Assembly: GCF_026626685.1 (NCBI RefSeq)
Contig: NZ_JAPNJX010000021.1
Span: 105,329-169,328, forward strand
Reading direction: 5' to 3'
DNA: 64,000 nucleotides
DNA from: Nannocystis sp. SCPEA4
Lineage (GTDB): Bacteria > Myxococcota_A > Polyangia > Nannocystales > Nannocystaceae
The position numbers and the translations under genes are program-made. The notes under the pieces are model-generated. The model was not told the origin of the DNA and ran no database searches. It saw only the letters and a list, made by a program, of their open reading frames with translations. Shown in pieces: positions 403 through 64,000 of this stretch (its first letter is position 1; each line of letters opens with the position of its first letter).

Positions 403-855
403 ATGCACTCCGCCGCGCTCCACGCCTACGCCGTCGCCGTCGCCGCCCTCTTTTTCAAACATTTCATGACCACCGCGATCCAGGGGCGCGAGCGGCTGCG
501 GACCCGCAGCTTCGCCTACCCCGAGGATGCCGCGCAGTGGCGGGGCGAGCACCACGACGGCCCGCCCTCGCCGCTGTGGGATCGCGCGGCCCGGCTGCTG
601 CGCAACGACGGCGAGAACCACGCGCTGTTCTTCGCCCTCGGCGGGGCCTACGTCGCCCTCGGCTGCCCCGACCGCCTCGGGGTGGCTTACTTCGCCGTCT
701 ACGCGGTGGCCCGCTGGGCCCACGCCGTCTTCTTGCTGTGGCCGCGCCAGCCGCACCGCAACCGGGCCTACGTCGTCTCGCTCGCGGTGCTCCTCGCGCT
801 CGCGGTGCACGTCACGATCGCCGGCCTCGGCGCGTGCGCGCTGCGGCTCGCCTGA
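403..855 (+). CDS. MAPEG-family membrane protein (microsomal GST-like)
   Basis: 150 aa with about four hydrophobic helices and the MAPEG-like signature R..NDGENH. Confidence 0.55.
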   Translation: MHSAALHAYAVAVAALFFKHFMTTAIQGRERLRTRSFAYPEDAAQWRGEHHDGPPSPLWDRAARLLRNDGENHALFFALGGAYVALGCPDRLGVAYFAVYAVARWAHAVFLLWPRQPHRNRAYVVSLAVLLALAVHVTIAGLGACALRLA

Positions 856-889
856 CGCGGACATGTCCTTTCAGACAGGCCGTGCGACG

Positions 890-1633
890 CTAGCGGCCCG
901 AGAGGAAGCCGAGGCGCTGGAACAGCGGCTCGGGGGTGTGGCGGACGACGAAGAGGATCGGGCGCCAGTACCACGGGACGAACGCGACGGCCCGGCGGCG
1001 GGCGATCGCGCGGTCGATGTCGCGGGCGACCCGCTGCGGCGTGGCGAACAGGGCGTTCTTGGCGTGCGTCGCGGTCATCGGCGTGTCGACCGGGCCGAGC
1101 TTGAGGGTGGTGACGGTGACGCCGGCCGGCCAGAGCCGACTGCGCAGGCCCTGCAGGTACACGTGGAGCGCGCCCTTGGCGGCCCCGTAGGTATAGTTGC
1201 GCGGGCGGCCGCGCTCGCCGGCGACCGAGGTGATGACGGCGATCGTGCCGCTGCGCTGGCGCTCGAGCGCGTCGGCCAGCGGGATCAGCAGCGCCAGCAC
1301 CGAGACGAAGTTGGCCTGGACGATCCGCGCGGCCTCGGCGACGTCGTGCTCGCTCCGCTGCTGGTCGCCGAGGTCGCCGTGGGCCACGAACACGAGGTCG
1401 ACGCGGCCGTCGAGCGCCGCGATGCCCTCGCGCGCGAGCGCCTCGGCGCGGGCGAGGTCGGTGAATTCGCCGCTGGCCGTGGTGACCTCGGCGCCGCGGC
1501 AGCGGGCGGCCACCGCCGCGAGCTTGTCGGGGTCGCGGCCGACCAGGTGGAGCCGATCGCCGCGGGCGGCCCAGCGCACACACACCTCGGCGGCGATCGC
1601 GGAGGTGGCCCCGAAGACGATGACGTGACGCAT
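890..1633 (-). CDS. SDR-family oxidoreductase
   Basis: Start taken at the internal Met MRHVIVFGATSAIA (Rossmann TGxxxGxG-like). YGAAK catalytic motif present. About 248 aa, typical SDR length. Convergent with the upstream gene. Confidence 0.8.
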   Translation of the reverse strand: MRHVIVFGATSAIAAEVCVRWAARGDRLHLVGRDPDKLAAVAARCRGAEVTTASGEFTDLARAEALAREGIAALDGRVDLVFVAHGDLGDQQRSEHDVAEAARIVQANFVSVLALLIPLADALERQRSGTIAVITSVAGERGRPRNYTYGAAKGALHVYLQGLRSRLWPAGVTVTTLKLGPVDTPMTATHAKNALFATPQRVARDIDRAIARRRAVAFVPWYWRPILFVVRHTPEPLFQRLGFLSGR

Positions 1634-1708
1634 GGCGGCGAAGGTAGCGCGGCCGGCGGCGGCGCGCCAGCAGGGCCTCGGTCGTCCGCTCGCAACGCCG
1701 GCGAGATG

Positions 1709-1790
1709 GACCTCAGGACATGCCCATGACGACATGCCTGATACGACATGCTCGATGAGACATTGCCGTTCGGACATGCCCAGGAGAGGC
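1709..1790. repeat. Five-unit tandem array of a 14-bp GACATG-containing repeat in the SDR promoter region
   Basis: GACATGCCCATGAC / GACATGCCTGATAC / GACATGCTCGATGA / GACATTGCCGTTCG / GACATGCCCAGG. GACATG starts at about 1718, 1731, 1745, 1759 and 1773. Confidence 0.8.
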
Positions 1791-1886
1791 GTACCGCGGG
1801 CGGAGCCCCGAGGGCCCGCCAGACTCCGAGATGCGCCGCGCGACATGTCCTTTCAGGCATCTTCGTCCGGCATTCACGTGCGCGCC

Positions 1887-4772
1887 TCAATTCTGCGGCG
1901 CCACGGCGTCGGTGCCCTCCACGTGCGCGGCGCGCCAGGCGACGGCCTCGGCGAGGTCGATCGAGCCGGCGAGGCCCAGGGCCGTGAAGGTGGCGACCGC
2001 CTGGTCGAGGAGGACGCGGGCGCGCGGGCGGTCGCGGTCGGACAGCCACAGCGCGCGGGCCAGGCCGTACTCGGCGCGGCCGCGCAGGAGCGCGTGGACG
2101 TCGGTGCCGGCGCGGATCGCCAGGGCCCGCTCGAACGCCGGGATCGCGGTGGCGAGGTCGCCGGCACGGATGCCCCACTCGCCGAGGCCGAGCAGCGAGC
2201 GCGCGACCTCGGCGTGGCTCTCGCCGAGCACGCGGCGGCGGATCGCCAGCGAGCGGTCGATGACCTCGCGCGCACGGTCGAGCTGGCCGGCGCCGAGGTA
2301 CGACTCGCCGAGGTTGTCGAGCTGGGAGCACAGCTCGATGTGGTCGGGGCCGAGGCGGCGCTCGAGCGAGCGCACCACCGCCTCGAACGCGGCGACGGCG
2401 TCGACCGGGCGGCCGCTGCGGGCCAGCGCGGCGGCGATGTTGCCCTGGAACACGACCACCAGCGGATCGTCCTCGCCGTGGGCGCGGAGGATGATGTCGA
2501 GGCCGCGGCGCCAGGTCGCCAGAGCGGCGTCGAAGTCGGTGAGGACGAAGTAGAGGCTGCCCTCGTAGCGCAGGGCGGCGGCGACCTCGGGGTGGTCGGG
2601 GCCGTAGAGCCGCTCGAGGCGGGTGCGGCTGTCCGGAAGGACAGCTTGCGAGCGGGCGAACTCCTGGCGGGCCCACAGCGCGGTGCCGAACCACTGCCGC
2701 GCGCGCGCGGTGTCGGGGTTGTCGGCGCCGTGGAGGGCGTCGTAGGCGGCGACGCTGCGCTCGATGGCGACCTCGGACTCGGCGTAGCGCCCGAGCGACC
2801 ACAGCAGCTTGCTGCGGGCGAAGTCGAGGAAAGCGGCGGCGATGTCGTCGGGCGCGCGACTCTGGGCGGCGGTGGCGATCTGCAGCCAGACCTCGGCGTG
2901 GTCGAGGCGGCCGAGGCTGTTGAGGGCCTCGACCAGGGCGGCCGCGGCGTCGCGAGCGACCGCGTCCTCGTGGCTCGCGGTGGCGATGGTGAAGGCCGAC
3001 ATCAGGCTGACCTGGGCCTCGCCGTCGCGGTGCACCAGCGCGAGCAGGCGCCCGCGCGCGAGCAGGGCCTCGGCGACCACCGGGCTGTAGGCGGCGGCCT
3101 CGGCGGCGGCGACGGCCGCCTCGGCGGCGAGCAGGCCGGCCTCGTAGCGGCCGGTGTGCTCGAGCGCGGCGACGTTGGCGAGCTGGCGGCGCACGGCGTC
3201 GACGGCGAGCGCGGTGTTGGGATCGTCGGGCGGCGGCAGCTCGGCCTGCAGGACCGGGAGGTCGGCGCAGCGCTCGACCGGCGGCAGCGCGGTGACGGCG
3301 TCGACCGCCCGCTCGACCACGCCGGCGTCGGCGGCGACCAGCAGGTCGGTGACCGCCTTGACCTCATGGACATGTCTTGAAAGACAGGCCATGCGGCGGT
3401 CGAGCAAGCGCTCCGACTGCTCGCCGCGCGCGTGGGCCTCGCAGGCCTCGCGGTGCATGGTCGCGATCGCGTCGGCGCGAGCGTCGAGGCGCGCGGCCAC
3501 CTGCGTCCACGCCTCGTCGGCGAAGTCGACGTCGGCGGCCTCGAAGGCGTCGGCGGCGGCGTCGCGGCGGGCCGGGTCCCACACGCCGATCAGCCGGGCC
3601 TCGCCGCCGCCGCAGCGATCGGGCTCGTGCAGGCTGTAGGCGGCCGCGGCGAGGCCGACCACGACGGCGAGGCCGAGACCGACCACGGCGTGGCGGGCTC
3701 GCACCTGCGGGCCGGCGAGGTCGGCCAGCAGCGCGTCCATGCTCGGGTAGCGCGCGTCGGGGGCGCGCGCGAGGCCGCGCGACAGCGCCCGGTACAGCCG
3801 CGGCGGCACGCGCGGGCCGACCTGACCGCGCTCGGGCAGGTCGGCGACCAGGACCTGGTCGCGCAGCTCGTCGACGGTCTCGCCGGCGAACGGCCGCACG
3901 CCCCACAGCGCCTCCCACAGCGCGACGCAGAAGCTGAACTGATCGGTGCGGGCGTCGACCTGTCCTCCGAGCCATTGCTCCGGGGCCATGTACGCCGGCG
4001 TGCCGGCGACGAAGGCGGTGCGCTCGATGGCCGCGCCGCCGAGCTCGCCGTCGTCGGACCGCTCGGCCTGCTCGGCGAGGGCGGCCAGGCCGAAGTCGAC
4101 CACGCGGACGCGGCCCTCGAGGTCGACGAGGACGTTGCCGGGCTTGAAGTCGCGGTGGGTGAGGCCGACGCGGTGGGCCGCGGCCAGGCCGCGACCGGCC
4201 TCGGCGAACACGGTGAGGATGTCCTGCGGGCTGCGCTCGCGGTCGTCGAGCCAGGCCGACAGCGTGACGCCGCGGACGAACTCCATGGCGATGAACAGCT
4301 CGTCGCCGATCGTGCCGGCCTCGTAGACCTGGACCACGTTGGGGTGCGACAGGCGGGCCAGCGCCTGCGCCTCGCGCAGCAATCGCGCCTGCAGGCGCTC
4401 GTCGTTGCGGTGGTGCGAGCGCACGAGCTTGATCGCCACGCGCCGCTCGAGCACCTCGTCGTAGCCGGACAGCACGACGCCCATGCCGCCCTCCCCGAGC
4501 TCGCTGAGGATCGCGTAGCGGCCGATCCGGCGCGACTGACGGATCGCCAGCGAGTCGTCGAGCGCAGCCGCGGCGCCGCGCACACTGATGCCCGAGGTCT
4601 GCTGGGCCGTGACGCTGTCCTTGCGGTCAGGCGGGGCCAGAGCCGTCTCTTCGATCGCGCTCGGGCGGGCCCGGGCGGTCACGTCGAGCGCCGGGGAGCG
4701 CCCGTCGGTGGTCGCGAGCAGGTCCACACCGGAGGGCCCGGTGCGCATGTCGTCGGGCGAGGGGGCACCCAC
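1887..4772 (-). CDS. Ser/Thr protein kinase with C-terminal TPR repeats
   Basis: 961-aa ORF. Hanks kinase motifs: GEGGMGVV glycine loop, [22 protein letters not shown] long TPR-like region follows a TM segment. GTG start at 4772; an alternative ATG lies at 4748. Confidence 0.85.
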
Positions 4773-4963
4773 CGCTGAGCACGGTACACGACCTCCGTCT
4801 CGCCCGGCGAGCGCGACCTCGCGCGCGAGCGCCCTCGCCCCTGCCCGCCGGCCCGCCTGGCGGCCCCTTCAGCTGTCCTTTCGGACATGTCGTGACGCAG
4901 ACAGGCGACCGCCCGGGCAGGTCGCCAGATCTGCCCGGGCGGTCTTCGTGGTGGGTGAGGATC

Positions 4964-8313: not shown

Positions 8314-11300
8314 TTAGTAATTCGCATTACCAAACGATCGTTCGCACGCGGCGGCCCGCGCGTCGGCGGTCTCCTGCGATTCGCCCAGGTGGCGCCGGCG
8401 CTCGGCGGGCTGCAGGCAGGCCTGCGTGGCCGCGACGAGGCGCGCGTGCAGATCGGCGTTCAGGCGCGGCCAGACGACGACGCGGCCGTCGGCGCCGGCC
8501 GATGCCAGGCGGTCGCCGCGCGCGTCGAAGGCGAGCGCGTGCACGCCGGCGCCGTGACCCGTGAGCACCTCGGGGCCGTCGTCGCCCTGCAGCGACCAGA
8601 AGTGGAGCTCGCCGTCGGCCGCACCGGCGGCGATCCACGCGCCCTGCGGATCCCAGGCGACGCTGTCGAGCGGCGCGCCGGCGCGACCGACCTCGCTGCG
8701 CACCCCGGTGGCCGCGGCGATCCGCACCAGCGCCCTGCCCTCGCCCGCGACCGCGAGCGCGTCGCCGGCGGGGCTCCAGGCCAGCGCGCGCAGCGGCTGG
8801 CCCAGCTCGATGAACACGGTCTGCTCCACGCGCACCAGCACGAAGCCGGTCGCGGTCACGGCCGCCAGGCGCTCGTCGACCGGCGACCACGCCAGCGCGG
8901 TGATCGGCCCGCGACCCTGGGCGGCGCGTGTCGGATCGGGCATGTTCTCCGAGACATGTCCTGGAGGCCAGATAAAAAAGCTGCCGTCGCTGCCGCCGGC
9001 GGCCAGGCGGCCCGTGCGAGGGTCCCACGCGAGCGCGGGCACGGACCGGCGATCGACCGTGGCGCGCCGGGTCGCGCCCTCGCCGACGGGCAGCCAGGTG
9101 ATCGCGCCGGAATCGTCGGTGATCGCCAGCTCCTGGCCGTCGGGGCGCCAGGCCAGCGCGAGCGCGGTGCCGGCGTGGTCGCGGCGGCGCACCGGCCCGC
9201 CGTCGACCGGCAGCAGCCACACGCTGCGGGCCCCGGCCGCCGCCAGCCTGGTGCCGTCGGGGCTCCACGCGACCGCGTGCACGGCCGCGCCGACGTCGTG
9301 CTCGCGCAGGGCCGCCGGCGTGAGCCGCCAGACCCGCGCGCTGCCGTCGTCGCTGCCGCTGACCAGGCGGACGCCGGTCGGCGCGAACGCCAGCGCCCGC
9401 ACCGGGCCGGTGTGGCCGCGCAGCACGTACGGCCGCGCCGCGCCGCCGAGCCGCCACACCCGCGCGCTGCCGTCGTCGCTGCCGCTGGCCAGCCAACCTG
9501 TCCCGAAGGCCAGGCTCGTGACGCCGCCGTCGCCGACCACCGCGAACACCCGGCGCGCGCGGCCGTCGACGCGCCAGACGTCGACGCCGCCGTCGTCGCG
9601 GCCGATCGCCAGTTGGCGGCCGGAGCGGTCCCACGCGAGCGCGCTGACGGCCGCGCCGCGGTTGCCGATCGCCAGCGCGCGGCCGTCGGCCACCAGCCAC
9701 ACCTCGCCGCGCGGCCCGGCTGCCGCGACCTGGGCCCCGTCCGGGCTCCAGGCGACGGCGGCGAGCGGGCCGCTGACGCCGCGCAGGGCGACGACCCGCC
9801 CGCCCGCCTCGAGCGAGACCTGCCCGCGCGCGTCGGTCCGCAGCTGCTCGCCGGCGGGACCGCGCCGCGGGTCGAATGCGGGCGCGCGGGCGGACGTGCT
9901 CGCCGGGCCGCCGGTGGTGGCGAACCGGCGCAGCCCGCCGGCGGCGTCGATCGTCTCGATCGCGTGGCTGTCCCAAGGGACAGGCGTGGCGCCGCCCGGG
10001 CCCGGGCTGTCCGAAGGGACAGGTGCACCTTGGCCCTGCGCTGACTTGTCCGAAGGGACAGCCTTGTCAGCGTCGGCGGTCGCGCCGCCGTCCGGACCCT
10101 GCCTGTCCCCGGGGACAGCTCCGCCCGCTGCCTCGACCCAGCGCACCGTCAGCACCGGCCCCTCGTGGCCGCGCAGGATCGCCGCGCTGATCGGCTCGGC
10201 CAGCACCCGCTGCGCCAGCGCCCCGGGGTCGTCGAGCTCGCGCAGCAGCAGCGCCGCGGTCGTCGGGTCGCGCGGCAGCAGCGAGAACGCGGCGTCGCGG
10301 ACTCGCAGCGCCTGCGCGTGGCGTTCGGCGGCGGCGCGCTCGGCCGCGAGCTCGTCGGCGGCGAACGGGACGACCTCGCCCACGCTCGTCGGCGGCGCCT
10401 CGCCCGAAGTGACCGGGCCTGCCTCGGGCTGGGCCAGGCTCACCCCGAGCGCGACCAGCCCGGCCGCGGCCGCGGCCGCTCCGCCGGCGATCAGGACCGT
10501 CCGCGCGCGTCCCGCTCCGGGCTCGCGGGCGAACCGCCGCGGCGGCTGGAGAGCAGCCAGCAGGTCGTCCATCGTCGGCCAGCGGGCGTCGGGCTTTTCG
10601 GACAGGCCGCGGGCGATCGCGCGGCGGATGCGCGGAGGCACGCGACTTTCGCGCGGAATGGGTGCGATCTCGACCTGCCCGAAGCGCGGAACCGAGCCGA
10701 ACGGGCGCAGTCCGAACAGCCCCTCGAACAGCGCCACGCAAAAGCTGAACTGATCGGAGCGCGGCTCGGCGGCGCCGTAACGCTGCTGCTCGGGCGCCAT
10801 GTAGGCGGGCGTGCCGAGGATGCTGCCGGTGCGCGTGAGCGGCTCGAGCTCGTCGTCGAGGCTCTCGCCGGCATCGAGGGCGCACGTGAGGCCGAAGTCG
10901 AGGACGCGGGCGCGGCCGCGGTTGTCGACGAGCACGTTCTCGGGCTTGAAGTCGCGGTGGAGCAGGCCCGCGTGGTGAGCCGCAGCCAGCGCCCGCCCGG
11001 CCTGCAGGTACACCATGAGCACCGCGTGCCACGGCCGCGGGCGCTCGCGCAGCCAGGCCTCGAGGGTCACGCCCTCGATCAATTCCATGGCGATGTAGAC
11101 CTGGTCGCCCCACGCGCCGACCTCGTAGATCCGCGCCACGTGCTCGTGCTCGAGGCGGGCCATCGCTCGGGCCTCGCGCAGCAGACGGGCGCGACCCTGC
11201 TCGTCGCCCTGGAGGTGCGGGTGCACCAACTTGATCGCCACGCGGCGGCCGAGTTGGGCGTCGACGGCCGCATACACGACGCCCATGGCCCCCGCCCCGA

Positions 11301-14967: not shown

Positions 14968-15260
14968 GTCGAGCGGGCGGCCGAGGGGCGGCGCGGCAGG
15001 TCCCTCGCGACGCGGGTCCTCCCGGACCAGGTGCTCGTCGGCGATGACAGGTGGCGCGCGTCCGCCGATCGGCCCGCCGCCTGCGCGCCAGGTCCAGGTC
15101 CTCCCGCTGCGTCCCACCACGCCGCCCCTCGTCCGCCCTGAGGAGATCGTCGCGGGCCCCGCTCGTCGCCGACGAGTCGTACCGCCGGCCCAGGGCCAGC
15201 TGCATGGATAGACATGTCGTAGAGGACATGATCTCTGGACTATGTTTCAAAGAACATGTC

Positions 15261-15680
15261 TCAAAATTGGATCTGCAACCCTCCGGGTGCCAGCCGGATC
15301 CGTGCGCTCGGGCGCAGCCGCTCGTGACGCCGCAGCCTGGCGCCGAAGATCCCGGTCGGGATCGCCAGCAGCGCCGCGGTCGGCAGCATCACGATCGCCG
15401 TCCAGGCCTCTCCGAACCCGTCGTTGTCGCAGTCGAGGCAGCCGGTGGCTCGCGGCCAGAACAGCCAGGCGAGCATGCTCGCGCCGGTGACGAAGGTCGC
15501 CGCCATGAACCCTCCCGAGAGTCCCGTCACGATCTGCAAGCTGCGCCGCTTGGCCCGCCAGGCCTGAAGCTCTCCGGCCGGCGTGACGACCCCGGGCGCT
15601 GGCGCCTGTGCCTGCGCGAGTCTCGGTGGCGAGGCGCACGCGAGCGCGAGAGCCCAGGTCACGCTCGCGGCCTTCGGCAT
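15261..15680 (-). CDS. Small membrane/secreted hypothetical protein
   Basis: In-frame Met MPKAASVTWALALACASP gives a signal-like N-terminus and hydrophobic helices downstream. Weak call. Confidence 0.3.
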   Translation of the reverse strand: MPKAASVTWALALACASPPRLAQAQAPAPGVVTPAGELQAWRAKRRSLQIVTGLSGGFMAATFVTGASMLAWLFWPRATGCLDCDNDGFGEAWTAIVMLPTAALLAIPTGIFGARLRRHERLRPSARIRLAPGGLQIQF

Positions 15681-16942: not shown

Positions 16943-16950
16943 CCCTTGAG

Positions 16951-17100
16951 ACATGTCTCATCGGCCATGTCACGGAGAGCATGTCGTGGCGGACATTTTC
17001 TCGGAGACATGTCCAGATGCTCATCCCGGATCGGGCATGTCTCGGAGAGCATGTCGGATCAGACATTTCCGTGACGACCTATCCGAATGCGCATTCTTCG
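16951..17100. repeat. Intergenic array of GACATGTC-family short repeats (period about 12-14 bp)
   Basis: GAGACATGTCTCATCGGC / CATGTCACGGAGAG / CATGTCGTGGCG / GACATTTTCTCGGAGACATGTCC ... GGGCATGTCTCGGAGAGCATGTCGGATCAGACATTTCC. Confidence 0.7.
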
Positions 17101-45120: not shown

Positions 45121-45175
45121 CAATATGCCCATAAGGACATGTCGATAACGCCATGTCCTCATGGACTCTCGTGGC
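45121..45175. repeat. Intergenic 14-bp-period GACATGTC-family array
   Basis: CAATATGCCCATAAG / GACATGTCGATAAC / GCCATGTCCTCATG / GACTCTCG. Confidence 0.65.
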
Positions 45176-50012: not shown

Positions 50013-51071
50013 TCACGGCCGCACGTCGACGAGCCACGCCCAGCCGAGCGCACCGGGTCGCGTCGTGAGCGTCAGAATCACCGGGTCTTTCGGCAATGTC
50101 CCGACGACCCTGTCCATCGGGACATGCAGCCGAGTCGGCGACTGCCCGAGCACCAGCCCCTCGACCTCGATGACCACCCGGGTCTCCCCGCGGTCGACCA
50201 CCCGCACCGGCAGACGGAGCGCCTCCTCCGGTCCGGCGTCGAGGGCCGCGTTGGCGTACAGCGCCAGCTTCATCCCGGCGAACGGCGTCGTCAGCAGGAA
50301 CGCCGCCGCGCAGATCGACAGCCAGCGCAGCGAGTCGGGCGCGCCGCGCAGGACCAGCGCCAGCCCGCCGCACACGATCATCCACAGCAGCCCGCCGATC
50401 CCGATCCCCGCGAACACCGGCTGCCAGGCCAGCACCTGCGGCGGGCGCAGCACCACTGCCAGCGCGAGCATGACCAGCCACGCGAACGCGATGGCGAAGA
50501 TGTGGCCGACCGGGCGCCGGCGCACCAGCTCGGCGCGGGTCGGCATGTCCTTCGGGACAGCCATCGCCGCCGCCAGCGCCCGCAGCGACGCCAGCAGCTC
50601 GGTCGCGGCCGCGGGCGCCTCGAGCTGGGCCGCCGTCAGCTTCGCCGTCACCCGGCCCTCGCCGAGCTGGACCTCGCCGGCCGGCCCGCACACCAGCGCC
50701 TGCGCGGCCGAGCGGGCCGCCGGGGCCGCCAGCACCTGGGCCACGAGCGCGTCCGGGGCCTCTGACTCGACGTAGACCGCCGCGTCGAACGCCGCGTCGC
50801 CGAGCTGCAGCTCGCGGTTGATCCCGAGCGCCTTGCCGCCGCGGTCGATCGCGTCCTCGGCCCGCAGCACGATCCGCGGCGTCTCGGCCGCGTCGGCCCG
50901 CGCGACCACGAACACCGCGCCGACGCAGGCGCCCTCCAGCAACTCGGGATACACATGTACTTCGGGACCTGTCCCGAAGCGCAGCACGAACGGTGCCAGC
51001 TCGCTGCGCCCGCCCGCCTCGACCGCCATCCTCTCGCCGCCGAGGGCCTCCGCCAGCCGCGCGAACTCCAT
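50013..51071 (-). CDS. Membrane protein, hypothetical
   Basis: Met MEFARLAE. Central cluster of 4 TM helices. Carries three in-frame GACATGTC-family motif copies. Confidence 0.45.
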   Translation of the reverse strand: MEFARLAEALGGERMAVEAGGRSELAPFVLRFGTGPEVHVYPELLEGACVGAVFVVARADAAETPRIVLRAEDAIDRGGKALGINRELQLGDAAFDAAVYVESEAPDALVAQVLAAPAARSAAQALVCGPAGEVQLGEGRVTAKLTAAQLEAPAAATELLASLRALAAAMAVPKDMPTRAELVRRRPVGHIFAIAFAWLVMLALAVVLRPPQVLAWQPVFAGIGIGGLLWMIVCGGLALVLRGAPDSLRWLSICAAAFLLTTPFAGMKLALYANAALDAGPEEALRLPVRVVDRGETRVVIEVEGLVLGQSPTRLHVPMDRVVGTLPKDPVILTLTTRPGALGWAWLVDVRP

Positions 51072-53348: not shown

Positions 53349-53482
53349 GGGCACCGCCGAGGATGCCACGATCGCGCGAAAAGGGAACCCGCCGGCCGCG
53401 ACAGAGGGGGAAGGCCGGGCCGGCGGGTCGAGTGGATGTCTTTTCGGTCATGTGCGAACAAACACACGACCACGCGCCGCGA

Positions 53483-54532: not shown

Positions 54533-54839
54533 CTGCCTGGTTCCCCCTGCGACCTGTAGGGATGATGCGCAGCAGGCAGGCACGCAAACCCCGTTGTGTC
54601 CCGCATCACCAGCGCCGCGCCGCTCTCCATGAAGATGTCCCTTCACACATGTCCGAAAGACATCCTCGCAAGCCGACACACCTCGCCGCCGCACGACGTT
54701 CACCACCGCTTCGGCCCGCCGCCACGCGCCGCACGTCGTCGCGGTCCACCACGCAGCTGCACCTCGCCGGTTCACGGCACCGACCTCGAGTCCAACCTTC
54801 GCCTCGCGCCTCGCAGCCATGCGCTCCCATCTCGGCGCA

Positions 54840-56199: not shown

Positions 56200-56566
56200 A
56201 CATGCCCATGAAGACATGCCTATTACAACATGTCCATTGAGACATTCTACTTGACCTCGGCCCCGGCCACCTGCGCCCCCGCCTCCCCCTGTCTCCCGCG
56301 GCGCGGCGGCCGAACGCCACGCCACGACCTGTCCCTTGCGACATTCCACCTCGCCCAGCTCCGCCCCCTGCCAGGCCCGCGCCCCACCGACATCTCGCCA
56401 CGCCACGACGACATGTCCCTTTCGACATGTTTCCTCGCGCATGACTCACCGGCCCGATGCCGGCCCGCGCCTACCCCCAACAGGTCGCCGCGCCCTTCAA
56501 ACGCCCCGACGACCTGTCCTTTTCAACATGCCCCATCGAGCATGACTCACCGGCCCGACGCCGGCC
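56200..56566. repeat. GACATG 14-bp-period array plus a 56-nt direct repeat x2 upstream of glycine-rich paralog 2
   Basis: ACATGCCCATGAA / GACATGCCTATTAC / AACATGTCCATTGA / GACATTCTACTTGA. Also GAC(A/C)TGTCC(C)TTT(C/T)(G/A)ACATG...GCATGACTCACCGGCCCGA(T/C)GCCGGCC at about 56411 and 56511. Confidence 0.7.
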
Positions 56567-56569
56567 GCC

Positions 56570-59452
56570 TCACCCGATCTCGCCGCGGCGCGCCCGGCCG
56601 AACGCCACGCGGCGCAGCAGCAGGTCGAGGATCAACAGCGGCAGCGCCAGCGCCCACAGCACCTCGGGCCAGACCGGGCGCTGGCGCGTCCCTTGCGGCG
56701 CGCCGGGGCTCGTCACCACCGCGTCGATCGGCCCCGCGTGCGTGCCTTCGGGCGCCAGCGCCGCCAGCCAGGCCGGGTCGGCGCCGAGCTGGTCGGGCGC
56801 CAGCTCGGCCGGGTACGGCACGCTCGCCTGGCCGGTCGCCTCGGCCACCAGTCGCGGCGGCGTCTGGCCGTCGTCGAACATCTGCGCCTTGATCAGCCGC
56901 TGGCCCGCGCGCACCCCGATCACCGTCGCCTCGTAGCGGCCCGGCGCCGTCAGCTGCGTCGTCAGCTTGGTCGTATGTCCTTCGGAACCGGGAGGAAGGG
57001 ACGGGTCGATCACCTGCAGTTCGCCGCGCAGGTCGCTGACGAAGCCGGTGCTGGCGTCGAGGTCGACCACCGCGCGGAAGCTGCCCTCGTCGGCGCCGGG
57101 CGTGATCCGCAGCGACGCCCCGCCGAGCGACGCGGCGCCCTGGCGCATCACGTCGCGGGCCACCTGCGACCAGAACTTGGGGAAGCCCTCCCAGGCGATC
57201 CAGCGGTGGGCCCAGCGCGGCTTGGCGTCGGACGCGAACGCGACCGTGCGGCCGAGCCCGCGGCGGCCGCGGACCAGCAGCGGATCGCCGACGTGCGTGC
57301 GCAGCAGCAATTCCGCCAGCGGCTTGGTCTTCAGCGGGATCACCCCGCCGAGCCCCGGCGCGCGGTCGAAGTCGATCCCGCGCAGCACCTGGGCGCTCTT
57401 GGCCACCCGCGCGAACAGGTCGCGCTCGACCACCGCGTTGCGGGTCACCTCGCGCGTCTCGCGGGAGAAGATCCGCGGCACATCGGTGCCGTCCTGGCTG
57501 AAGTAGTAGCGGCCGCGCCCGCGCTCGGCGACGCGGGCGAGGAAGTCCTTGCCCGCGCCCGCGCCGACGCCGACGGCCGACACCGTAATGTCGGCGTCGC
57601 GCATGTCGGTGATGAGCGCCGACACCCCGGTCTCCGGCGACTGCCCGTCGGACAGCAGGATCACGTGCTTGACCAGCGCCTTGCTGCCCGCGAGCTGCAT
57701 GTACGCCTCGCGCAGGGCCGGCAGCGCATTCGTCCCGCCGCCGGCGCTGAGCCGGCGGATGTCGCCGGCGATCCGGATGCGGTTGGCGGCCGGCTGCAGG
57801 CGCACCAGCGTGACCGGCCGCGAGTCGAACGCGATCACCCCGATCTCGTCGCCCGGGTCGAGCGTCGAGGCCGTCGAGCGAGCTGCCTCTTTGACCAGGT
57901 CGAGGCGATCCTCGCTCGACATCGACCCGCTCTTGTCGATCACCAGCACCAGCGCCAGCGTCGGCTGCTCGCGCTGGCGCTCGCCCTCGAAGCGGACCGG
58001 CAGCACGTCCTCGATCACGCTGCCGCCCCAGCCGCCGACCCCGAACGCGCTCTCGCCCCCGATCATCACGAAGCCGCCGCCGTCCTGGACCCACTTCGCG
58101 ATCGCCTGCTGCTGCGCCCCCGACACGTGGCGCGACGGCACGTCCGACAAAATCACGAGGTCGTACGGCTGAAGCCCCTCGGCCGCGCCCGGGATCGCCG
58201 ACGCCGCCTCCGCGTCGACCTGCAGGTGGTCGGCCCGCAGCGCCCGCGCCAGCGCGCCCGACGGATCGCCCTCGCCGACCAGGAGCACGCGCGGTCGTCC
58301 GCGGACCTCGCCGACGGCCGCCGCGCGGTCGTTGTCGAGGCTGCGGTTGTCGGCCGCCGCCAGCTCGGCCGCGTCGAGTCGGGCCGCGATCACGATCGGC
58401 CCCGGCGCGTTGGCGCGGACCGGCACCTTGATCTGCTGCGGCCCGCCGCGCAGCGCCACCTCGACGCTCGGCGACAGCGCGTTCGGCTGCCCGTCCTTGT
58501 CGACGAACAGCTTGAGCGTGCGCGGCTCGGAGGCCCACACGTCGATCGCCGCGTCGAACGTCTGCCCGACCCGCAGCTCGCCCGGCAGGTGCACCCCCGC
58601 GACCAGCACGTCGCCGCGGGCCGCCGGCGCGGCCGTGCGGGTGTGCAGCGTGATCCCGCGCCGGCGCAGGCCCTCGGCCGCCGCGATCAGGTCGGTGCGC
58701 TCGGCCACGCTGGCGGCACCGTCGCTGACCAGCACCACCCGGCCCTCGGTGTCGGGGTCGAGCAGCGCCTCGGCCAGCCGCAGCGCCCCGGCGTGATCGC
58801 TGGCCAGTCCGCCATCTGGCTCTCGGGACAGCTGCACTTCAGCTGTCCCTTCGGACAGGGGCAGCGCCGCCGCCCGGCTCGCGTAGGTCACGAGGCGCAG
58901 GCGCGTGAGGTCGTCGCGGTCGCCGGTCTCGGCGCGGACCAGGCGCACGACCTCGCGCGCGACCCCCGTGAACGCGGCCAGCTGACCGTCGTCGACGCTG
59001 GCCGACACGTCGACGGCCACCACCACCGTCTTGCCGCGCCGCGGCGCCTGCAGGCTCGGGGCGGCCAGCGCCAGCGCCAGCGCCAGCAGCAGCAGCACGC
59101 GCGCGCCGAGCTGCAGCGCCACCTGCCAGGCCGGCAGGTCGACCAGCGAGCGGCGCGCGACCGCGACGAGGAACGGCAGCAGCGCCACCGGCATGAGCCA
59201 CAGCACGCTCGGGCGCGCCAGCACCAGCGTGCGGTCGCCGGCCTCCGACAGCCTGGCCGCCAGCCACTCGGGCAGGGTGAACAAAAGGACAGGAACGTCG
59301 GGACCGAAGCGATGCAGCGCCGCCGCGGCGCCGAGGCCGAGGGCCAGCCACAGCAGAGCCCAGGGGCGAGCTCCGAAGGGTGCAGCGCGGGTCAAGGGCG
59401 CACCGGGGCGCGCGGGCCGGGGGAAGATCGCATCGGCGAGGTCCGCAACCAT
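56570..59452 (-). CDS. VWA-domain protein with N-terminal TM segment (BatA/BatB-like)
   Basis: Met MVADLADAIFP, two N-terminal TM helices, two VWA-like MIDAS regions (VVVAVDVSASV; LVLVIDKSGSMSSEDRL). 961 aa. Confidence 0.7.
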   Translation of the reverse strand: MVADLADAIFPRPARPGAPLTRAAPFGARPWALLWLALGLGAAAALHRFGPDVPVLLFTLPEWLAARLSEAGDRTLVLARPSVLWLMPVALLPFLVAVARRSLVDLPAWQVALQLGARVLLLLALALALAAPSLQAPRRGKTVVVAVDVSASVDDGQLAAFTGVAREVVRLVRAETGDRDDLTRLRLVTYASRAAALPLSEGTAEVQLSREPDGGLASDHAGALRLAEALLDPDTEGRVVLVSDGAASVAERTDLIAAAEGLRRRGITLHTRTAAPAARGDVLVAGVHLPGELRVGQTFDAAIDVWASEPRTLKLFVDKDGQPNALSPSVEVALRGGPQQIKVPVRANAPGPIVIAARLDAAELAAADNRSLDNDRAAAVGEVRGRPRVLLVGEGDPSGALARALRADHLQVDAEAASAIPGAAEGLQPYDLVILSDVPSRHVSGAQQQAIAKWVQDGGGFVMIGGESAFGVGGWGGSVIEDVLPVRFEGERQREQPTLALVLVIDKSGSMSSEDRLDLVKEAARSTASTLDPGDEIGVIAFDSRPVTLVRLQPAANRIRIAGDIRRLSAGGGTNALPALREAYMQLAGSKALVKHVILLSDGQSPETGVSALITDMRDADITVSAVGVGAGAGKDFLARVAERGRGRYYFSQDGTDVPRIFSRETREVTRNAVVERDLFARVAKSAQVLRGIDFDRAPGLGGVIPLKTKPLAELLLRTHVGDPLLVRGRRGLGRTVAFASDAKPRWAHRWIAWEGFPKFWSQVARDVMRQGAASLGGASLRITPGADEGSFRAVVDLDASTGFVSDLRGELQVIDPSLPPGSEGHTTKLTTQLTAPGRYEATVIGVRAGQRLIKAQMFDDGQTPPRLVAEATGQASVPYPAELAPDQLGADPAWLAALAPEGTHAGPIDAVVTSPGAPQGTRQRPVWPEVLWALALPLLILDLLLRRVAFGRARRGEIG

Positions 59453-61360: not shown

Positions 61361-61576
61361 CCTGTCCTTCGGGACACTGTCTCTACGGACATATCCCGAG
61401 AGACATCTCTGTCTCCAGGCCGACCGCCCCGCGCCGACGGGCGCACACGCGCCGCGGGCACGCGATCGCGCGCGATCGATAGCTCACTGGGTGTTGCAGG
61501 TCGGACAGGCAAATAGGACTCTACCGGCCGCAGTCCGAGTGCCCACCCCCCGGGCCGGACCCAGGAGAACCGCAAC

Positions 61577-61936
61577 ATGTCGCACCGTATTCGTCTCGCT
61601 CTGTTCGCCGCGCTGACCGCCGTGGCCGTCCCCGCCATCTCCTACGCCGACTCGGCCGGGACCGTCGGCAACGTCGAAGCCGTCACCCTCCACGAGCCCG
61701 GCAGCGACAACTACGGCATGTTCAACGGCTCCGTCACGATCAAGGAGAAGACGGGCCAGAAGCGCGACTACAAGTGGGGCGGCTCGCTGTGCCCCGGCCG
61801 TGAGATGAGCGCCAACTCGATCAACCTGCTGTTCCAGGCCCTCCAGGCCCGCAAGGCGATCGAGGTCACCCCCAACTACAAGACCGGCAACGGCAACGAG
61901 CGCTGCCTGACCGGCTTCAAGATCGCCAACCGCTGA
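61577..61936 (+). CDS. Small secreted protein
   Basis: RBS CAGGAGAAC 7 nt before the ATG. Signal peptide ALFAALTAVAVPAISYA. 119 aa, two Cys. Lower GC than surroundings. Confidence 0.6.
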   Translation: MSHRIRLALFAALTAVAVPAISYADSAGTVGNVEAVTLHEPGSDNYGMFNGSVTIKEKTGQKRDYKWGGSLCPGREMSANSINLLFQALQARKAIEVTPNYKTGNGNERCLTGFKIANR

Positions 61937-61939
61937 TCG

Positions 61940-62182
61940 TCAGGCGCCGCGGGCCGCCTGCACCAGCGCCCACAGCCCGGCCTCGGCCGGCCGTTCGTCG
62001 TTGATCATCACCGCGACGAACGCCGGCTCGGCCGGCAGATAGGCCACGATCGCCCGGAAGCCCGGCGCGCCGCCGCTGTGACCGACCATCAGCCCCGGCC
62101 CGCCCGCTGCCTCGTAGAGCATCATCCCCCGCCCGTAGCGCAGCGCCGGGTCGTCGAAAATCGGCGCCATGTCGCGCAGCAT
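61940..62182 (-). pseudogene. Remnant C-terminal fragment (about 80 aa) of a class-C-beta-lactamase-fold serine hydrolase
   Basis: ...GLMVGHSGGAPGFRAIVAYLPAEPAFVAVMINDERP matches the C-terminal GH(S/T)GG.PGF...V.(V/L).N block of this fold. No upstream SxxK-bearing N-terminal domain in any frame. Confidence 0.4.
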
Positions 62183-62193
62183 CGCCGCCAGGA

Positions 62194-62838
62194 TCACAGC
62201 GGTTGCCACTGCAGCGTCTCGACCGCGATCTGGTAGCCGAACCACCCGTTGTCGAGGCGCAGACGCGCCGGCAAGGCCCCGTCCTTCATCCCGCCCTCGT
62301 AGGTGATGACGATCGCGCCGGCCGGCTTGCCGTCCTTGCGCTCGAAGCGGCGCTCGAGCAGCGCCCCGCCCTGCCACACCTCGGTCACCCGCTCGTCGCC
62401 GACCTCGCCCGTGTGCGTCCCGTCGGGCAGCGGCGCTCCCGGCAGTCCGAGGAACTGCACGCGGTGGACGTCGAGCAGCATGAAGCGCGGCGGGAACGGC
62501 AGCTTGCCCTCCGGCGCGAACACCTCGATCTTCACCTCGGCGCCCTGCTGCTTGGCCACGAACGCCTTGGTCGCGAACGGCGTCAGCCCGACCAGCGTCA
62601 GCGCGTCGCCCTGCTTCTGCAGCACCACCTCGCCGCCTATCTCGCGCCCGCGGGCCGTGCCGTGCAGGCGCTGGCGGGCCATGAAGTCGGGCCCGGCCAG
62701 CGTCGTCGCCAGCGCCCCCGGGTAGTCGGCCTCGCGCAGCTCCCGCGGCGGCGCCGATTCGGCCTGCTGCCCTTTGGAGCATGCCCCCAGGAGCATGGCC
62801 CCGAAGACATGCCCGATCGACCATGCCCGAAGGTTCAT
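62194..62838 (-). CDS. Lipoprotein (possibly LolA-like partner of the upstream exporter)
   Basis: Lipobox AMLLGACS. 214 aa. ATG overlaps the upstream exporter stop codon (ATGA). Confidence 0.5.
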   Translation of the reverse strand: MNLRAWSIGHVFGAMLLGACSKGQQAESAPPRELREADYPGALATTLAGPDFMARQRLHGTARGREIGGEVVLQKQGDALTLVGLTPFATKAFVAKQQGAEVKIEVFAPEGKLPFPPRFMLLDVHRVQFLGLPGAPLPDGTHTGEVGDERVTEVWQGGALLERRFERKDGKPAGAIVITYEGGMKDGALPARLRLDNGWFGYQIAVETLQWQPL

Positions 62839-64000
62839 CCGTGGTCCTTCCCCTCGCCCGCGCCCGCCAGCACCAGGGCGGCCGGCGCCAGCACCAGGCT
62901 GAGCAGCACCCCGAGCCCGACGGTGACGCCGATCGCCTGCAGCGCCGGGCTGGCCGACATCGCCAGCAGCCCGAACGCCAGCACCGTGGTCAGACAGGCC
63001 AGCAGCACGCTCAGCACCGTCGCGTCGAAGCCCCGCGGGTCATGGCGGCTCTCGGCCAGGAACACCCCGTAGTCGACGCCCATGCACAGCACCAGCAGCA
63101 GCGCGACCGCGTGGAGGATCCCGATCGTCACCCCGCTCAGGGCGATCAGCGCCAGCGCCGTCGCGGCCGCCAGCACCGCCGGGGCGAACGCCGCCAGCGC
63201 CAGCTTGAGCCGGCGGTAGCGCAGCCACACCGTCGTGAGCATCGCCAGCAGGCCGAACACCACCAGCTCGAGCGTGCGCGCGCGGTAGCGGCCGAACGCC
63301 GCCTGCATCATGCCCTGCTGGTCGAAGTAGCGCACGTCGGGCAGATCGGCCAGGCGGGCCTGCAGCGCCGCCACATCGCTGACCCCGCGCAGCAGCGTCA
63401 CCAGCGCGATCTCGCCGCCCTCGATGTCGGCGCGGAACGTCCGCGCCGCCTCGGCCAGCGGCGTCGCGGCCAGGTCGGCCGGCCGCATCGGGTCTGGCCC
63501 ATGGGACATGTCCGAAAAGAACTTGGCGAACGAGCCGGCGCGGAAGCCCTCGGCCACGAACGCCGCGTCGAGGCGGGCCGGCAGGCTCGGGTCGGCCAGC
63601 GCCGCCGCGTTGTCGCGCTGCAGCCGCTCCGACCACACCAGCGCGTGCAGGCTGCGGAACGCCTCGACCTCGCCGGCCGCCTGGGCCGCGCGCAGGCGGA
63701 CCGCGACCGCGTCGTTGCCGGCCAGCGCCGCCTCCTCGTCGGCCCCGAACGCGACCACGAAGCGCCCGCCGTCCATCCGCGACACCCGCGCCCGCACCCG
63801 CTCGTCCTCCTCCAGCATCTCCGGGTCGAGCGCCGTCAACCGGCGCACGTCGTCGGAGAACTCGATGCGCGGCAGCCCGACCACGCACAGCCCGAGCGCC
63901 GCCGCCGGCAGCACCGCCACCGCCGAGCGCCGCCGTCGCATCGCCGCGACCATCCGCGCCAGCCCGGCCGCCGCCCGGCGCTGGACCCAGCCTGGCTTCG
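62835..64000 (-). CDS. MMPL/RND-type predicted exporter (COG4258-like); 5' end outside window
   Basis: Frame stays open to the window edge. C-terminal half shows soluble loop, then five or six TM helices. Translationally coupled to the lipoprotein gene. Confidence 0.55.
   Translation of the reverse strand, partial: KPGWVQRRAAAGLARMVAAMRRRRSAVAVLPAAALGLCVVGLPRIEFSDDVRRLTALDPEMLEEDERVRARVSRMDGGRFVVAFGADEEAALAGNDAVAVRLRAAQAAGEVEAFRSLHALVWSERLQRDNAAALADPSLPARLDAAFVAEGFRAGSFAKFFSDMSHGPDPMRPADLAATPLAEAARTFRADIEGGEIALVTLLRGVSDVAALQARLADLPDVRYFDQQGMMQAAFGRYRARTLELVVFGLLAMLTTVWLRYRRLKLALAAFAPAVLAAATALALIALSGVTIGILHAVALLLVLCMGVDYGVFLAESRHDPRGFDATVLSVLLACLTTVLAFGLLAMSASPALQAIGVTVGLGVLLSLVLAPAALVLAGAGEGKDHG

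What the first reader, a model, noticed from the sequence alone, without database searches (positions are those of the whole stretch)
851..63530. Pervasive family of short GACATGTC-centred palindromic repeats in intergenic arrays and in-frame inside genes
The 8-10-bp palindrome GACATGTC (often GGACATGTCC, frequently followed by TTTCAGACAGG or TTCGGGACAG) recurs dozens of times in this window. The only expectation I computed is for the 6-mer core GACATG: roughly 16 occurrences at about 70% GC, against well over 60 observed. Almost every intergenic region carries it at least once, e.g. 851-880, 1709-1865, 4874-4905, 15201-15265, 16951-17250, 22941-22990, 23511-23530, 25441-25625, 35001-35060, 37661-37705, 40801-40835, 45121-45175, 46791-46815, 48891-48960, 53431-53465, 54631-54675, 56200-56560 and 61361-61430. 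Local AT content is well above the window average wherever copies cluster. The motif is also found inside coding sequences (see separate findings). A genome-wide, motif-defined repeat of this kind has no counterpart among the features annotated above. By analogy, candidates include a binding-site array for an abundant DNA-binding protein or nucleoid factor, a DNA-uptake-sequence-like signal, a REP/RPE-like selfish micro-element, or a methylation or restriction-associated motif (CATG core).
Basis: seen in the sequence. Interest (0 to 1): 0.85.

Follow-up and report, generated by a model that had tools for sequence, protein, structure and literature searches.

The report
Nannocystis short palindromic repeat family
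The window, from a Nannocystis myxobacterium, holds an apparently undescribed family of 14-base palindromic repeats that sit mostly just after genes, stack into exactly phased arrays, and have also spread in-frame into protein linkers; it behaves like the REP elements of other bacteria and is not a new kind of system.

Summary
GACATGTC occurs 18 times against 0.8 expected, and GACATG 82 against 23. The basic unit is a 14-bp palindrome, TGTCC-N4-GGACA, with 32 exact copies against 0.7 expected. Units are 7 times denser between genes than inside them. They lie 0-60 nt after stop codons (17 of 48 genes) and are rare between divergent genes. They are AT-rich, and their orientation relative to the neighbouring gene looks random. 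All six Nannocystis genomes sampled carry the family. A syntenic Nannocystis-like MAG has almost none, and the loci sampled from Paraliomyxa, Sorangium, Myxococcus, Byssovorax and Kofleriaceae have none above chance. Copy number at orthologous sites ranges from 0 to 10 units. Blocks of 14, 30, 39 and 70 bp come and go between relatives, and two distant arrays share spacer sequence. Coding copies lie in linkers or loops, mostly read as Val-x-x-Asp. One kinase linker has grown from no modules to about 12. My best reading is a genus-specific REP-like proliferating palindromic element, a new variant of a known kind. It lacks the GTAG/CGTC tag, and no transposase could be looked for. Its function and its binding protein are unknown.

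The parts
860..877 (.). GACATGTC junction plus the unit TGTCCTTTCAGACA, in the 34-bp gap between the convergent stop codons at 855 and 890.
   Evidence: The unit lies in a 30-bp segment that the close relative N. pusilla L081 lacks.
1717..1880 (.). Five-unit array of period 14 (1717-1790) and a further 2-3 units (1842-1880). They lie just after the stop of the STK-TPR gene (1887) and more than 80 nt upstream of the SDR gene start (1633).
   Evidence: (family D2). Orthologous spacers hold 0 (N. bainbridge) to 4 units.
2630..2643 (-). Unit inside the STK-TPR gene, read as A-V-L-P-D-S. It is conserved in all 5 species.
3359..3386 (-). Two units inside the STK-TPR linker ([11 protein letters not shown]). 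In the window the perfect unit uses the AT-ending codons TCA AGA (rare by GC3, my inference), where N. exedens and N. bainbridge have TCG CGC.
4874..4905 (.). Two units downstream of a conserved GC-rich terminator-like hairpin that follows the cytochrome gene stop (4964). The unit is present in 5 Nannocystis genomes and absent from the syntenic spacer of MAG L085.
8929..8970 (-). Three phased units inside a WD40 loop of the kinase gene (WPPGHVSENMPDP). The array is present in all 5 species.
9969..10117 (-). Four units (CTGTCC-N4-GGACAG) at 39-, 39- and 57-bp spacing in the kinase-WD40 linker, each read as V-P-x-D.
   Evidence: The linker is absent from the distant homologs P0008 and P0009 and holds about 3 to 12 modules in other Nannocystis. 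A 39-bp module is present in the window and absent from L081.
15211..15265 (.). Four-unit array directly after the stop of a small ORF, at the edge of a roughly 780-bp window-specific insertion.
16938..17269 (.). Nine-unit array starting at the stop of the gene ending at 16942. It includes a duplicated 70-bp (5-unit) block at 16960-17094. A second cluster lies at 17206-17269.
   Evidence: (family D12). Orthologous spacers hold 2-10 units.
22950..22980 (.). Two to three units upstream of the GFA-family gene.
25440..25618 (.). Array at 25440-25557 (41% GC) and a unit at 25601-25618 that abuts the stop of the gene ending at 25619.
27192..27209 (-). GACATGTC junction plus a unit inside the HTTM-domain gene, read as Y-V-R-W-D-M.
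28784..28965 (.). Two one-mismatch units (28784-28811) and one exact unit (28952-28965) in an intergenic region.
35016..35057 (.). Three phased units starting 6 nt after the stop at 35009.
37672..37699 (.). Two units 49 nt after the histidine-kinase stop (37622).
40801..40828 (.). Two units (period 14) overlapping the stop of the gene ending at 40821.
42297..42310 (.). Exact unit 48 nt downstream of the stop of the M16 peptidase gene (42359). It lies in the uncertain 5' region of the next gene.
45126..45167 (.). Three phased units after a GC-rich hairpin downstream of the ProRS stop (45218).
   Evidence: N. exedens has a different 3-unit array here, and N. punicea has roughly 85-bp tandem repeats that each carry a unit.
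46798..46813 (.). Single unit TGTCTCTTCAGACA in the divergent ProRS/oxidoreductase spacer.
   Evidence: The same spacer has 2 copies in N. punicea and 4-5 in N. exedens.
50111..50124 (-). Exact unit inside the gene 50013-51071, read as V-P-M-D.
50544..50559 (-). Exact unit inside the same gene, read as V-P-K-D.
   Evidence: It is conserved in N. exedens and N. punicea.
53437..53450 (.). One-mismatch unit 32 nt after the stop at 53483.
54636..54660 (.). One to two units in an intergenic region.
56201..56528 (.). Array at 56201-56244, 82% identical over 50 nt to the array at 1715-1764. Units at 56330, 56414 and 56515 lie within a 101-bp tandem repeat whose unit is a GC hairpin plus repeat units, downstream of the stop at 56570.
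   Evidence: families D2, D11.
58844..58857 (-). Exact unit inside the VWA-domain gene, in the S-x-x-T frame.
61363..61405 (.). Three abutting units starting 2 nt after the stop at 61360.
62780..62835 (.). Four CATG-centred units at a 14-bp period, at the boundary between the genes 62194-62796 and 62835-63920.
63495..63512 (-). GACATGTC junction with one-mismatch units, inside a gene.

Best explanation
This is a genus-specific family of REP-like miniature palindromic repeats.

Shown: the unit is the 14-bp palindrome TGTCC-N4-GGACA. It often extends to the 20-mer RCMTGTCC-N4-GGACAKGY, and its centre is T-rich on one strand. Units occur singly or abut head to tail, which gives arrays with an exact 14-bp phase whose junctions read GGACATGTCC. 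Copies accumulate just past stop codons, sometimes just past GC-rich terminator-like hairpins, between co-directional and convergent genes. They also occur in-frame in disordered linkers and loops of proteins.

Inferred: copies survive in those places because they do little harm there. Copy number grows and shrinks in register through slippage or unequal exchange between units; blocks of 14, 39 and 70 bp are seen. Multi-unit blocks are occasionally copied to new loci. The strict conservation of the half-site sequence, without base-pair covariation, implies recognition of the sequence itself by a protein. That protein could be a mobilising enzyme (a RAYT-like or other nuclease or transposase) or a host DNA-binding protein.

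Any host function is undetermined. Possibilities are effects on 3'-end RNA or on DNA topology, as proposed for REPs.
For: Unit and geometry: exact enrichment and exact spacing; unit logos.

Placement: 5.1 units/kb between genes against 0.70/kb in genes, and 17 of 48 genes with a unit within 60 nt after the stop against 4 near starts. Density is 6.0/kb in co-directional spacers, 5.1/kb in convergent spacers and 0.8/kb in divergent spacers. This is the placement reported for REPs (PMC3733652).

Lineage restriction: every Nannocystis locus has 10-32 exact units, and the outgroups have 0-1.

Turnover at orthologous sites: 2-10 and 0-4 units per spacer; a 30-bp presence/absence between convergent stops, a 39-bp coding module and a 14-bp indel; a 70-bp block duplication; a ProRS leader with 1, 2 and 4-5 copies.

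Dispersal: arrays 54 kb apart are 82% identical over 50 nt, spacers included.

Intragenic spread: the kinase linker has 0 modules in distant homologs and 3 to about 12 in Nannocystis. 8 of 11 exact coding copies lie in the orientation-symmetric V-x-x-D frame.

Sequence recognition rather than structure: no excess of complementary pairs in the window. Hairpins are only slightly more stable than random 30-mers, -10.0 against -7.9 kcal/mol.
Against: No transposase or nuclease partner was identified, and none could be searched for genome-wide.

Indel boundaries are ragged. No target-site duplication or defined element ends were seen, so true transposition is not demonstrated. Local duplication plus recombination could account for much of the pattern.

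The unit lacks the unpaired GTAG/CGTC tag of classified REPs and is shorter, 14-20 bp against 20-40.

Some single units are conserved across five genomes while their flanks diverge. That could mean a host function rather than selfish persistence.

Only about 220 kb of Nannocystis DNA was examined, much of it orthologous.
Confidence: 0.58

Rival explanations
1. The units are operator-like binding sites for an abundant Nannocystis DNA-binding protein, such as a nucleoid-associated, insulator or topology factor. A dimer would bind each TGTCC-N4-GGACA unit or each GGACATGTCC junction and polymerise every 14 bp downstream of transcription units. The repeats would then be maintained by selection for that binding and not by selfish spread.
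For: Half-site sequence is strictly conserved without covariation. Spacing is exact. By recall, the 14-bp geometry with 4-5-bp arms matches classical helix-turn-helix dimer operators such as the phage 434 operator ACAA-N6-TTGT. Some single units are conserved in five genomes within diverged spacers. Units are placed at gene 3' ends, where REPs are reported to bind gyrase and IHF (PMC2817692 abstract).
Against: Array size and position change rapidly between close relatives, and one species lacks an entire array. Copies sit inside coding sequences with expansion in linkers. No candidate protein was found. REPs also bind host proteins, so this is partly a sub-case of the best explanation.
Confidence: 0.2
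2. The units act in RNA. Transcribed at the ends of mRNAs, they would form hairpins (UGUCC-N4-GGACA, up to 8-10 bp in arrays) that stabilise 3' ends, terminate transcription, or bind an RNA-binding protein.
For: Units lie 0-60 nt after stop codons. The motif is palindromic, so it reads the same in RNA from either strand. Some copies have C(UUCG)G-type loops and 7-8-bp stems with free energies down to -17 kcal/mol. REPs are proposed to act this way.
Against: Mean stability is only modestly better than random 30-mers of this GC-rich genome. There is no base-pair covariation. There are no T-runs and only one terminator-like match inside an array. Several units lie beyond a GC-rich terminator-like hairpin. 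No Rfam family matched. Orientation of the T-rich centre relative to transcription is about even: my own tallies are 14 to 10 for all exact units and 9 to 7 for stop-proximal units.
Confidence: 0.12
3. GACATGTC is a highly iterated palindrome of the cyanobacterial HIP1 type (HIP1 properties are from my recall). It would be generated or maintained by a CATG-specific DNA methyltransferase and biased repair, or be a restriction-related motif.
For: It is the most over-represented 8-mer palindrome. It has a CATG core, which is the best-kept part of arrays, although those arrays were selected by CATG. One junction arose by a point change, GACCTGTC to GACATGTC, in the window lineage.
Against: The primary unit is TGTCC-N4-GGACA, and many units have no CATG. 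The strong intergenic and post-stop bias and the phased arrays are not HIP1 features as I recall them. Total CATG is only mildly raised, 212 against 155.
Confidence: 0.05
4. The motif is a DNA uptake sequence that marks self DNA for natural transformation.
For: The motif is abundant and genus-specific. By recall, Neisseria uptake sequences often sit as inverted pairs after genes.
Against: It forms tandem arrays with an exact 14-bp phase and rapid local copy-number change, and it is strongly depleted in coding DNA relative to intergenic DNA. I know of no evidence of competence in Nannocystis.
Confidence: 0.03

Closest known systems
REP / BIME elements, including the GTAG- and CGTC-tagged palindromic repeats of Di Nocera et al. 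2013 (PMC3733652)
   Same: Both are short palindromic units in high copy and lineage-specific. Both lie mostly between co-directional and convergent genes close to the 3' end of the upstream ORF, occur as singletons, dimers or clusters, and have occasional in-frame intragenic copies. No dedicated transposase is known for the CGTC superfamily, and the CGTC tag is sometimes TGTC.
   Different: The unit here is 14-20 bp, not 20-40. TGTC/GACA is part of the paired arms and not an unpaired tag, and there is no CCA tail. Stems are 5-8 bp, not 8-9. Units abut directly in a fixed 14-bp phase and create a second palindrome (GGACATGTCC). REP clusters instead are spaced in alternating orientation.
REPIN-RAYT systems (Bertels and Rainey 2011, PMC3116915)
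   Same: Both are non-coding palindromic repeats that multiply within a lineage and differ in number between relatives.
   Different: No RAYT gene flanked by units was found or could be searched for. No REP-doublet structure with a defined spacer was seen.
Rickettsia palindromic elements (RPE); comparison partly from recall,
   Same: Palindromic repeats are inserted in-frame into protein-coding genes and translated as extra peptide segments.
   Different: RPEs are about 100-150 bp, apart from the short RPE-4 and RPE-6 that are classed as CGTC REPs. Here 14-bp units or 39-bp modules are read as V-P-x-D and expand tandemly in linkers.
Neisseria dRS3 / NIME arrays (plus recall)
   Same: A short unit defined by terminal inverted repeats (ATTCCC-N8-GGGAAT) is present in hundreds of copies and organised in large intergenic clusters.
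   Different: dRS3 units alternate with 50-150-bp repeat segments. The Nannocystis units abut with no intervening segment.
HIP1 (GCGATCGC) of cyanobacteria; from recall
   Same: Both are hyper-abundant 8-bp palindromes characteristic of a lineage.
   Different: HIP1 is spread through coding and non-coding DNA without phased arrays or a position after stop codons. Here the 8-mer is a by-product of abutting 14-mers.

Membership tests
REP (repetitive extragenic palindrome), broad sense | Short (20-40 bp) imperfect palindrome able to form a stem-loop. | tested here: inconclusive
   The unit is a 14-bp palindrome, extended to about 20 bp in the logo. Stems are 4-9 bp. That is shorter than the usual range.
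REP (repetitive extragenic palindrome), broad sense | High copy number, dispersed, predominantly extragenic. | tested here: met
   32 exact and 87 near-exact units in 64 kb. Density is 5.1/kb between genes against 0.70/kb in genes. Densities are similar in six other Nannocystis loci. The whole-genome count was not obtainable.
REP (repetitive extragenic palindrome), broad sense | Located between unidirectional or convergent ORFs, close to the 3' end of the upstream ORF. | tested here: met
   17 of 48 genes have a unit within 60 nt after the stop. Divergent spacers have 0.8/kb against 5-6/kb elsewhere. The criterion is from PMC3733652.
GTAG- or CGTC-tagged REP superfamilies | Unpaired GTAG or CGTC (sometimes TGTC) tetranucleotide at one end, with an 8-9-bp stem, a 4-5-nt loop and a CCA-type tail. 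| tested here: not met
   TGTC pairs with GACA inside the palindrome. The flanks show only a symmetric R-C-M / K-G-Y preference. There is no one-sided tag or tail (definition).
REPIN-RAYT system | A single-copy Y1 (HUH) RAYT gene flanked by the repeats. | not testable with these tools
   The Pfam/NCBIfam scans of window ORFs and the precomputed Pfam lists of the fetched loci showed no transposase.
MITE (miniature inverted-repeat transposable element) | Defined ends with terminal inverted repeats and a target-site duplication at filled sites compared with empty sites. | tested here: not met
   Indels that carry units have ragged, variable boundaries (14, 30, 39, 52, 60, 70 bp) without a clear duplication.
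RPE-like intragenic palindromic elements | In-frame insertion in ORFs that is absent from homologs and translated. | tested here: met
   The kinase-WD40 linker modules are absent from P0008 and P0009 and vary in number among Nannocystis. There is a frame bias of 8 of 11. Translation itself was not tested.
HIP1-type iterated palindrome | An octamer palindrome enriched throughout coding and non-coding DNA, independent of neighbouring copies (as I recall the definition). | tested here: not met
   There is a strong intergenic bias, and the octamer arises at junctions of phased units.
DNA uptake sequence | Preferential uptake of motif-bearing DNA by a competence system. | not testable with these tools
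   No experimental or genomic test was available. Array structure argues against it.

The most novel reading that the evidence does not exclude
The exactly phased arrays are not just debris of a REP-like element. They would form a platform on which a Nannocystis-specific protein, possibly a domesticated nuclease or transposase, polymerises every 14 bp (three dimers per four helical turns) immediately downstream of transcription units. That would insulate genes or manage supercoiling. Alternatively, the unit is a micro-element that inserts next to its own end (GACA|TGTC), a self-seeding mode of array growth not described for REPs. The same element would also supply V-P-x-D linker modules to signalling kinases.
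Probability: 0.12. Interest if true: 0.75.

Novelty: new variant of a known kind. Interest (0 to 1): 0.45.

Why it matters
REP-like repeats are best known from Gamma- and Alphaproteobacteria. In the literature I could search, none has been described for Nannocystis or other myxobacteria.

This family has an unusually small unit and a strict 14-bp phase, and close relatives differ clearly in copy number. Those properties make it a workable case for studying how such repeats multiply without an obvious transposase. The same question is open for CGTC-type REPs.

The repeats are also a practical nuisance and a practical tool. They create spurious ATG-started ORFs. They mark gene 3' ends. They explain length variation in kinase linkers. 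They could serve as strain-typing loci for Nannocystis, a genus mined for natural products.

Tried and rejected
- Promoter or transcription-factor arrays upstream of genes: rejected. Units hug the upstream gene's stop, are scarce in divergent spacers, and gave no sigma-70-like matches.
- MrpC/CRP-type site TGTC-N8-GACA (motif recalled from memory): only 2 copies at k=8 against 32 at k=6.
- CsrA-type GGA loop motifs (recalled): the GGA lies in the stem and is not conserved in arrays.
- p53 half-site: GGACATGTCC equals the p53 consensus, and the top-ranked literature hits for the 8-mer (25 of 754 listed) are p53 papers or incidental primer and viral sequences, none bacterial. I treated this as coincidence.
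- Known RNA families and tRNAs: none in the window.
- Base-pair covariation: absent in the window. A small excess appears in pooled loci, but orthologous copies are not independent.
- Orientation of the T-rich centre: I found no bias relative to the + strand or to transcription. These are my own tallies.
- Target-site duplications: not found.
- Viral contigs: 5 sporadic matches to two phased octamers among the 2.9 million contigs of the collection, and none shows the family.
- Exact-protein look-ups failed for a window radical-SAM protein and for Plesiocystis P0051.
- Hypothetical proteins next to the largest arrays have no Pfam or NCBIfam match, so no candidate binding protein emerged.
- I ran no further search on a RAYT sequence recalled from memory. 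Only the top 120 hits are listed, and any Nannocystis hit would not have been visible.

Full report
**Source and gene content.** The window is 73% GC. It encodes typical myxobacterial proteins: Ser/Thr kinases fused to TPR or WD40 repeats, planctomycete-type cytochrome and PSD-domain proteins, a vault-like protein, and an ECF sigma factor. Its prolyl-tRNA synthetase is 88-89% identical to those of Nannocystis exedens DSM 71 and N. punicea FL3. Its kinase-WD40 protein is 93% identical to a N. pusilla protein. The source is therefore a Nannocystis close to N. pusilla.

**Checking the observation.** GACATGTC occurs 18 times against 0.77 expected from dinucleotide-preserving shuffles. GACATG occurs 82 times over both strands against 23 expected. 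GACATGTC is the most over-represented 8-mer. The listed coordinates hold the motif, apart from two weak single half-sites. The arrays are 41-64% GC. 'Almost every intergenic region' is too strong: 22 of 39 regions of 30 bp or more hold a unit, or 26 if lone GACATG is counted.

**What the repeat is.**
- Distances between CATG cores peak sharply at 14, 28, 42, 56 and 70 bp.
- TGTC-N6-GACA occurs 32 times exactly against 0.71 expected, and 87 times against 17 with one mismatch. The swapped control GACA-N6-TGTC occurs once.
- The spacing is specific. Among k = 0-32, TGTC-Nk-GACA gives 32 at k=6 and 8 at k=20, and 3 or fewer elsewhere. GACA-N0-TGTC gives 18. Direct GACA-N10-GACA gives 25.
- The unit is therefore the 14-bp palindrome TGTCC-N4-GGACA.
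- The oriented logo is RCM-TGTCC-YTYS-GGACA-KGY. In arrays the logo is GGRCATGYCC followed by four A/T-rich bases.
- Isolated units usually read CTGTCC-N4-GGACAG and contain no CATG.

**Structure or sequence.**
- In the window, complementary pairs at the positions flanking the core are no more frequent than the base frequencies predict: 16 against 14.4, and 18 against 17.3.
- Thirty-mers centred on units fold at -10.0 kcal/mol on average, against -7.9 for random 30-mers from the window.
- I read this as conservation of the half-site sequence, not of base pairing.
- The centre is T-rich on one strand. By my tallies, that strand is not tied to the + strand (14 to 11) or to the direction of the neighbouring gene (about 14 to 10 overall, and 9 to 7 for stop-proximal units).

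**Position relative to genes.** I built a gene map from codon statistics and corrected it with the annotation of a syntenic N. pusilla contig.
- Units occur at 5.1/kb between genes and 0.70/kb within genes.
- Seventeen of 48 genes have a unit within 60 nt downstream of the stop, several of them at -8 to +12 nt. Only 4 have one within 60 nt of the approximate start.
- Co-directional spacers hold 6.0 units/kb, convergent 5.1/kb and divergent 0.8/kb.
- In several places the order is stop codon, GC-rich hairpin, then units.
- No sigma-70-like promoter match was found. Only one terminator-like match overlaps an array.

**Taxonomic range.** Seven Nannocystis sequences from six genomes (the window, two N. 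pusilla strains, N. exedens, N. punicea and N. bainbridge) each hold 10-32 exact units and 8-23 CATG pairs spaced 14 bp apart. A syntenic contig from a more distant Nannocystis-like MAG has one exact unit and no array. Loci from Paraliomyxa, Sorangium, Byssovorax, Myxococcus, Citreicoccus and Kofleriaceae have 0-1 exact units.

**Turnover at orthologous sites**.
- The spacer after the gene ending at 16942 holds 2 to 10 units, arranged differently in each of the five genomes.
- The spacer after the STK-TPR gene holds 0 to 4 units. In N. bainbridge it is only 60 bp with no unit.
- Against the close relative L081 (92-97% identical), the window has a 30-bp segment with one and a half units between two convergent stop codons that lie 4 nt apart in the relative. 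It also has an extra 39-bp module in a coding linker, a 14-bp indel inside an array, and a duplicated 70-bp block of five units.
- The ProRS leader holds 1, 2 and 4-5 copies in three species.
- Some single units are kept in all five genomes while their flanks diverge.
- Two arrays 54 kb apart (1715-1764 and 56197-56246) are 82% identical over 50 nt, spacers included. This points to copying of multi-unit blocks between loci.
- Indel boundaries are ragged, and no target-site duplication was seen.

**Coding copies.**
- Four units lie in the kinase-WD40 linker and are read as V-P-x-D. The reading frame T|GTC|CNN|NNG|GAC|A is mirror-symmetric, so either orientation encodes the same pattern.
- That linker is absent from two distant homologs. 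It holds 3 to about 12 such modules in Nannocystis species.
- A three-unit array sits in a WD40 loop in all five species.
- Eight of 11 exact coding units use the V-x-x-D frame. Part of this bias may be due to codon usage.
- In the STK-TPR gene, a perfect unit in the window uses the codons TCA AGA where two other species have TCG CGC. Either the unit is decaying in those species or it is being sharpened in the window. The direction cannot be told from these data.

**Interpretation.** Placement after stops, scarcity in divergent spacers, restriction to one genus, copy-number flux, clusters and in-frame intragenic copies are the properties reported for REP elements (PMC3733652). That paper notes that CGTC-type REPs have no known transposase and that their tag is sometimes TGTC. 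The Nannocystis unit differs from them. It is shorter, its TGTC is paired and not an unpaired tag, it has no tail, and units abut in a fixed phase. I therefore class it as a REP-like family and a new variant of that kind, not as a member of the tagged superfamilies.
- Growth in register by slippage or unequal exchange is shown by the 14-, 39- and 70-bp events.
- Spread between loci is inferred from the shared spacers.
- The agent that recognises the half-sites is unknown.

**Rivals.** A host-protein binding platform is compatible with the data and may coexist with a selfish origin. An RNA-level role at 3' ends is possible but weakly supported. HIP1-like, methylation-linked and DNA-uptake readings fit poorly.

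**Prior description.** Searches for the 8-mer, for Nannocystis repeats, for RAYT/REP in Myxococcus-group bacteria and for palindromic repeats in myxobacteria found no description of this family. Rfam gave no match.

Noticed in passing
window 7908-8313: This roughly 400-bp non-coding region between the kinase-WD40 gene and the next gene is about 80% identical across five Nannocystis genomes, far more than other spacers. It contains a hairpin whose stem changes in a compensatory way (CCTTGCATGT-GCATGCAAGG, CCTTGTATGTCCCATACAAGG, CCTTGTGTGTCTCACCCAAGG). It may be a small RNA or a leader. There is no Rfam match.
   Followed up: partly
window about 46590-46670 (upstream of ProRS, minus strand): A sequence block (..ACGAGCTTCCGCACG.. 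flanked by the complementary GAATGCCC/GGGCATTC) is shared with the ProRS leaders of N. exedens and N. punicea, inside an otherwise unalignable spacer. It may be a regulatory leader of the synthetase gene.
   Followed up: no
window 20785-20787: There is an in-frame TAA in the PSD/PSCyt-domain gene (19327-21105) where N. pusilla L081 has TAC GAC. The window reads TAA CAC. The gene is intact (587-592 aa) in the four other genomes. This is either a pseudogene or a sequence error in the window.
   Followed up: partly
window about 15000-15800 and 18077-18775: These are two window-specific insertions relative to N. pusilla L081 and the other three genomes. One carries a small putative membrane-protein ORF followed by a repeat array. 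The other carries a 180-aa ORF (18142-18684) with no family match.
   Followed up: partly
window 39284-40744 and 48279-50013: A TonB_C-domain gene is missing from the syntenic loci of both N. exedens and N. punicea. A pair of genes (an HXXEE-domain protein and a hypothetical) is missing from the N. exedens locus; at the corresponding position N. punicea carries sequence matching a different part of the window (29188-30421). These are lineage-specific gene gains or losses next to repeat-bearing spacers.
   Followed up: no
window 53483-54820 and 55180-56442: These are two paralogous genes with an ALK/LTK glycine-rich domain (PF12810), a domain best known from animal receptor kinases. The spacer between them (54805-55055) holds 109-bp and 42-bp tandem repeats unrelated to the palindromic family.
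   Followed up: no
L002 12300-12650 (N. punicea, downstream of ProRS): There are four tandem repeats of about 85 bp, each carrying one unit (GGCTGTCCTTCGGGACATCTG). They lie where the window has a simple three-unit array, so units can be embedded in longer higher-order repeats.
   Followed up: partly
window 30695-33244: This gene encodes a protein with major-vault-protein shoulder and repeat domains (PF11978, PF17795), next to a radical-SAM gene. It is a eukaryote-like vault homolog.
   Followed up: no
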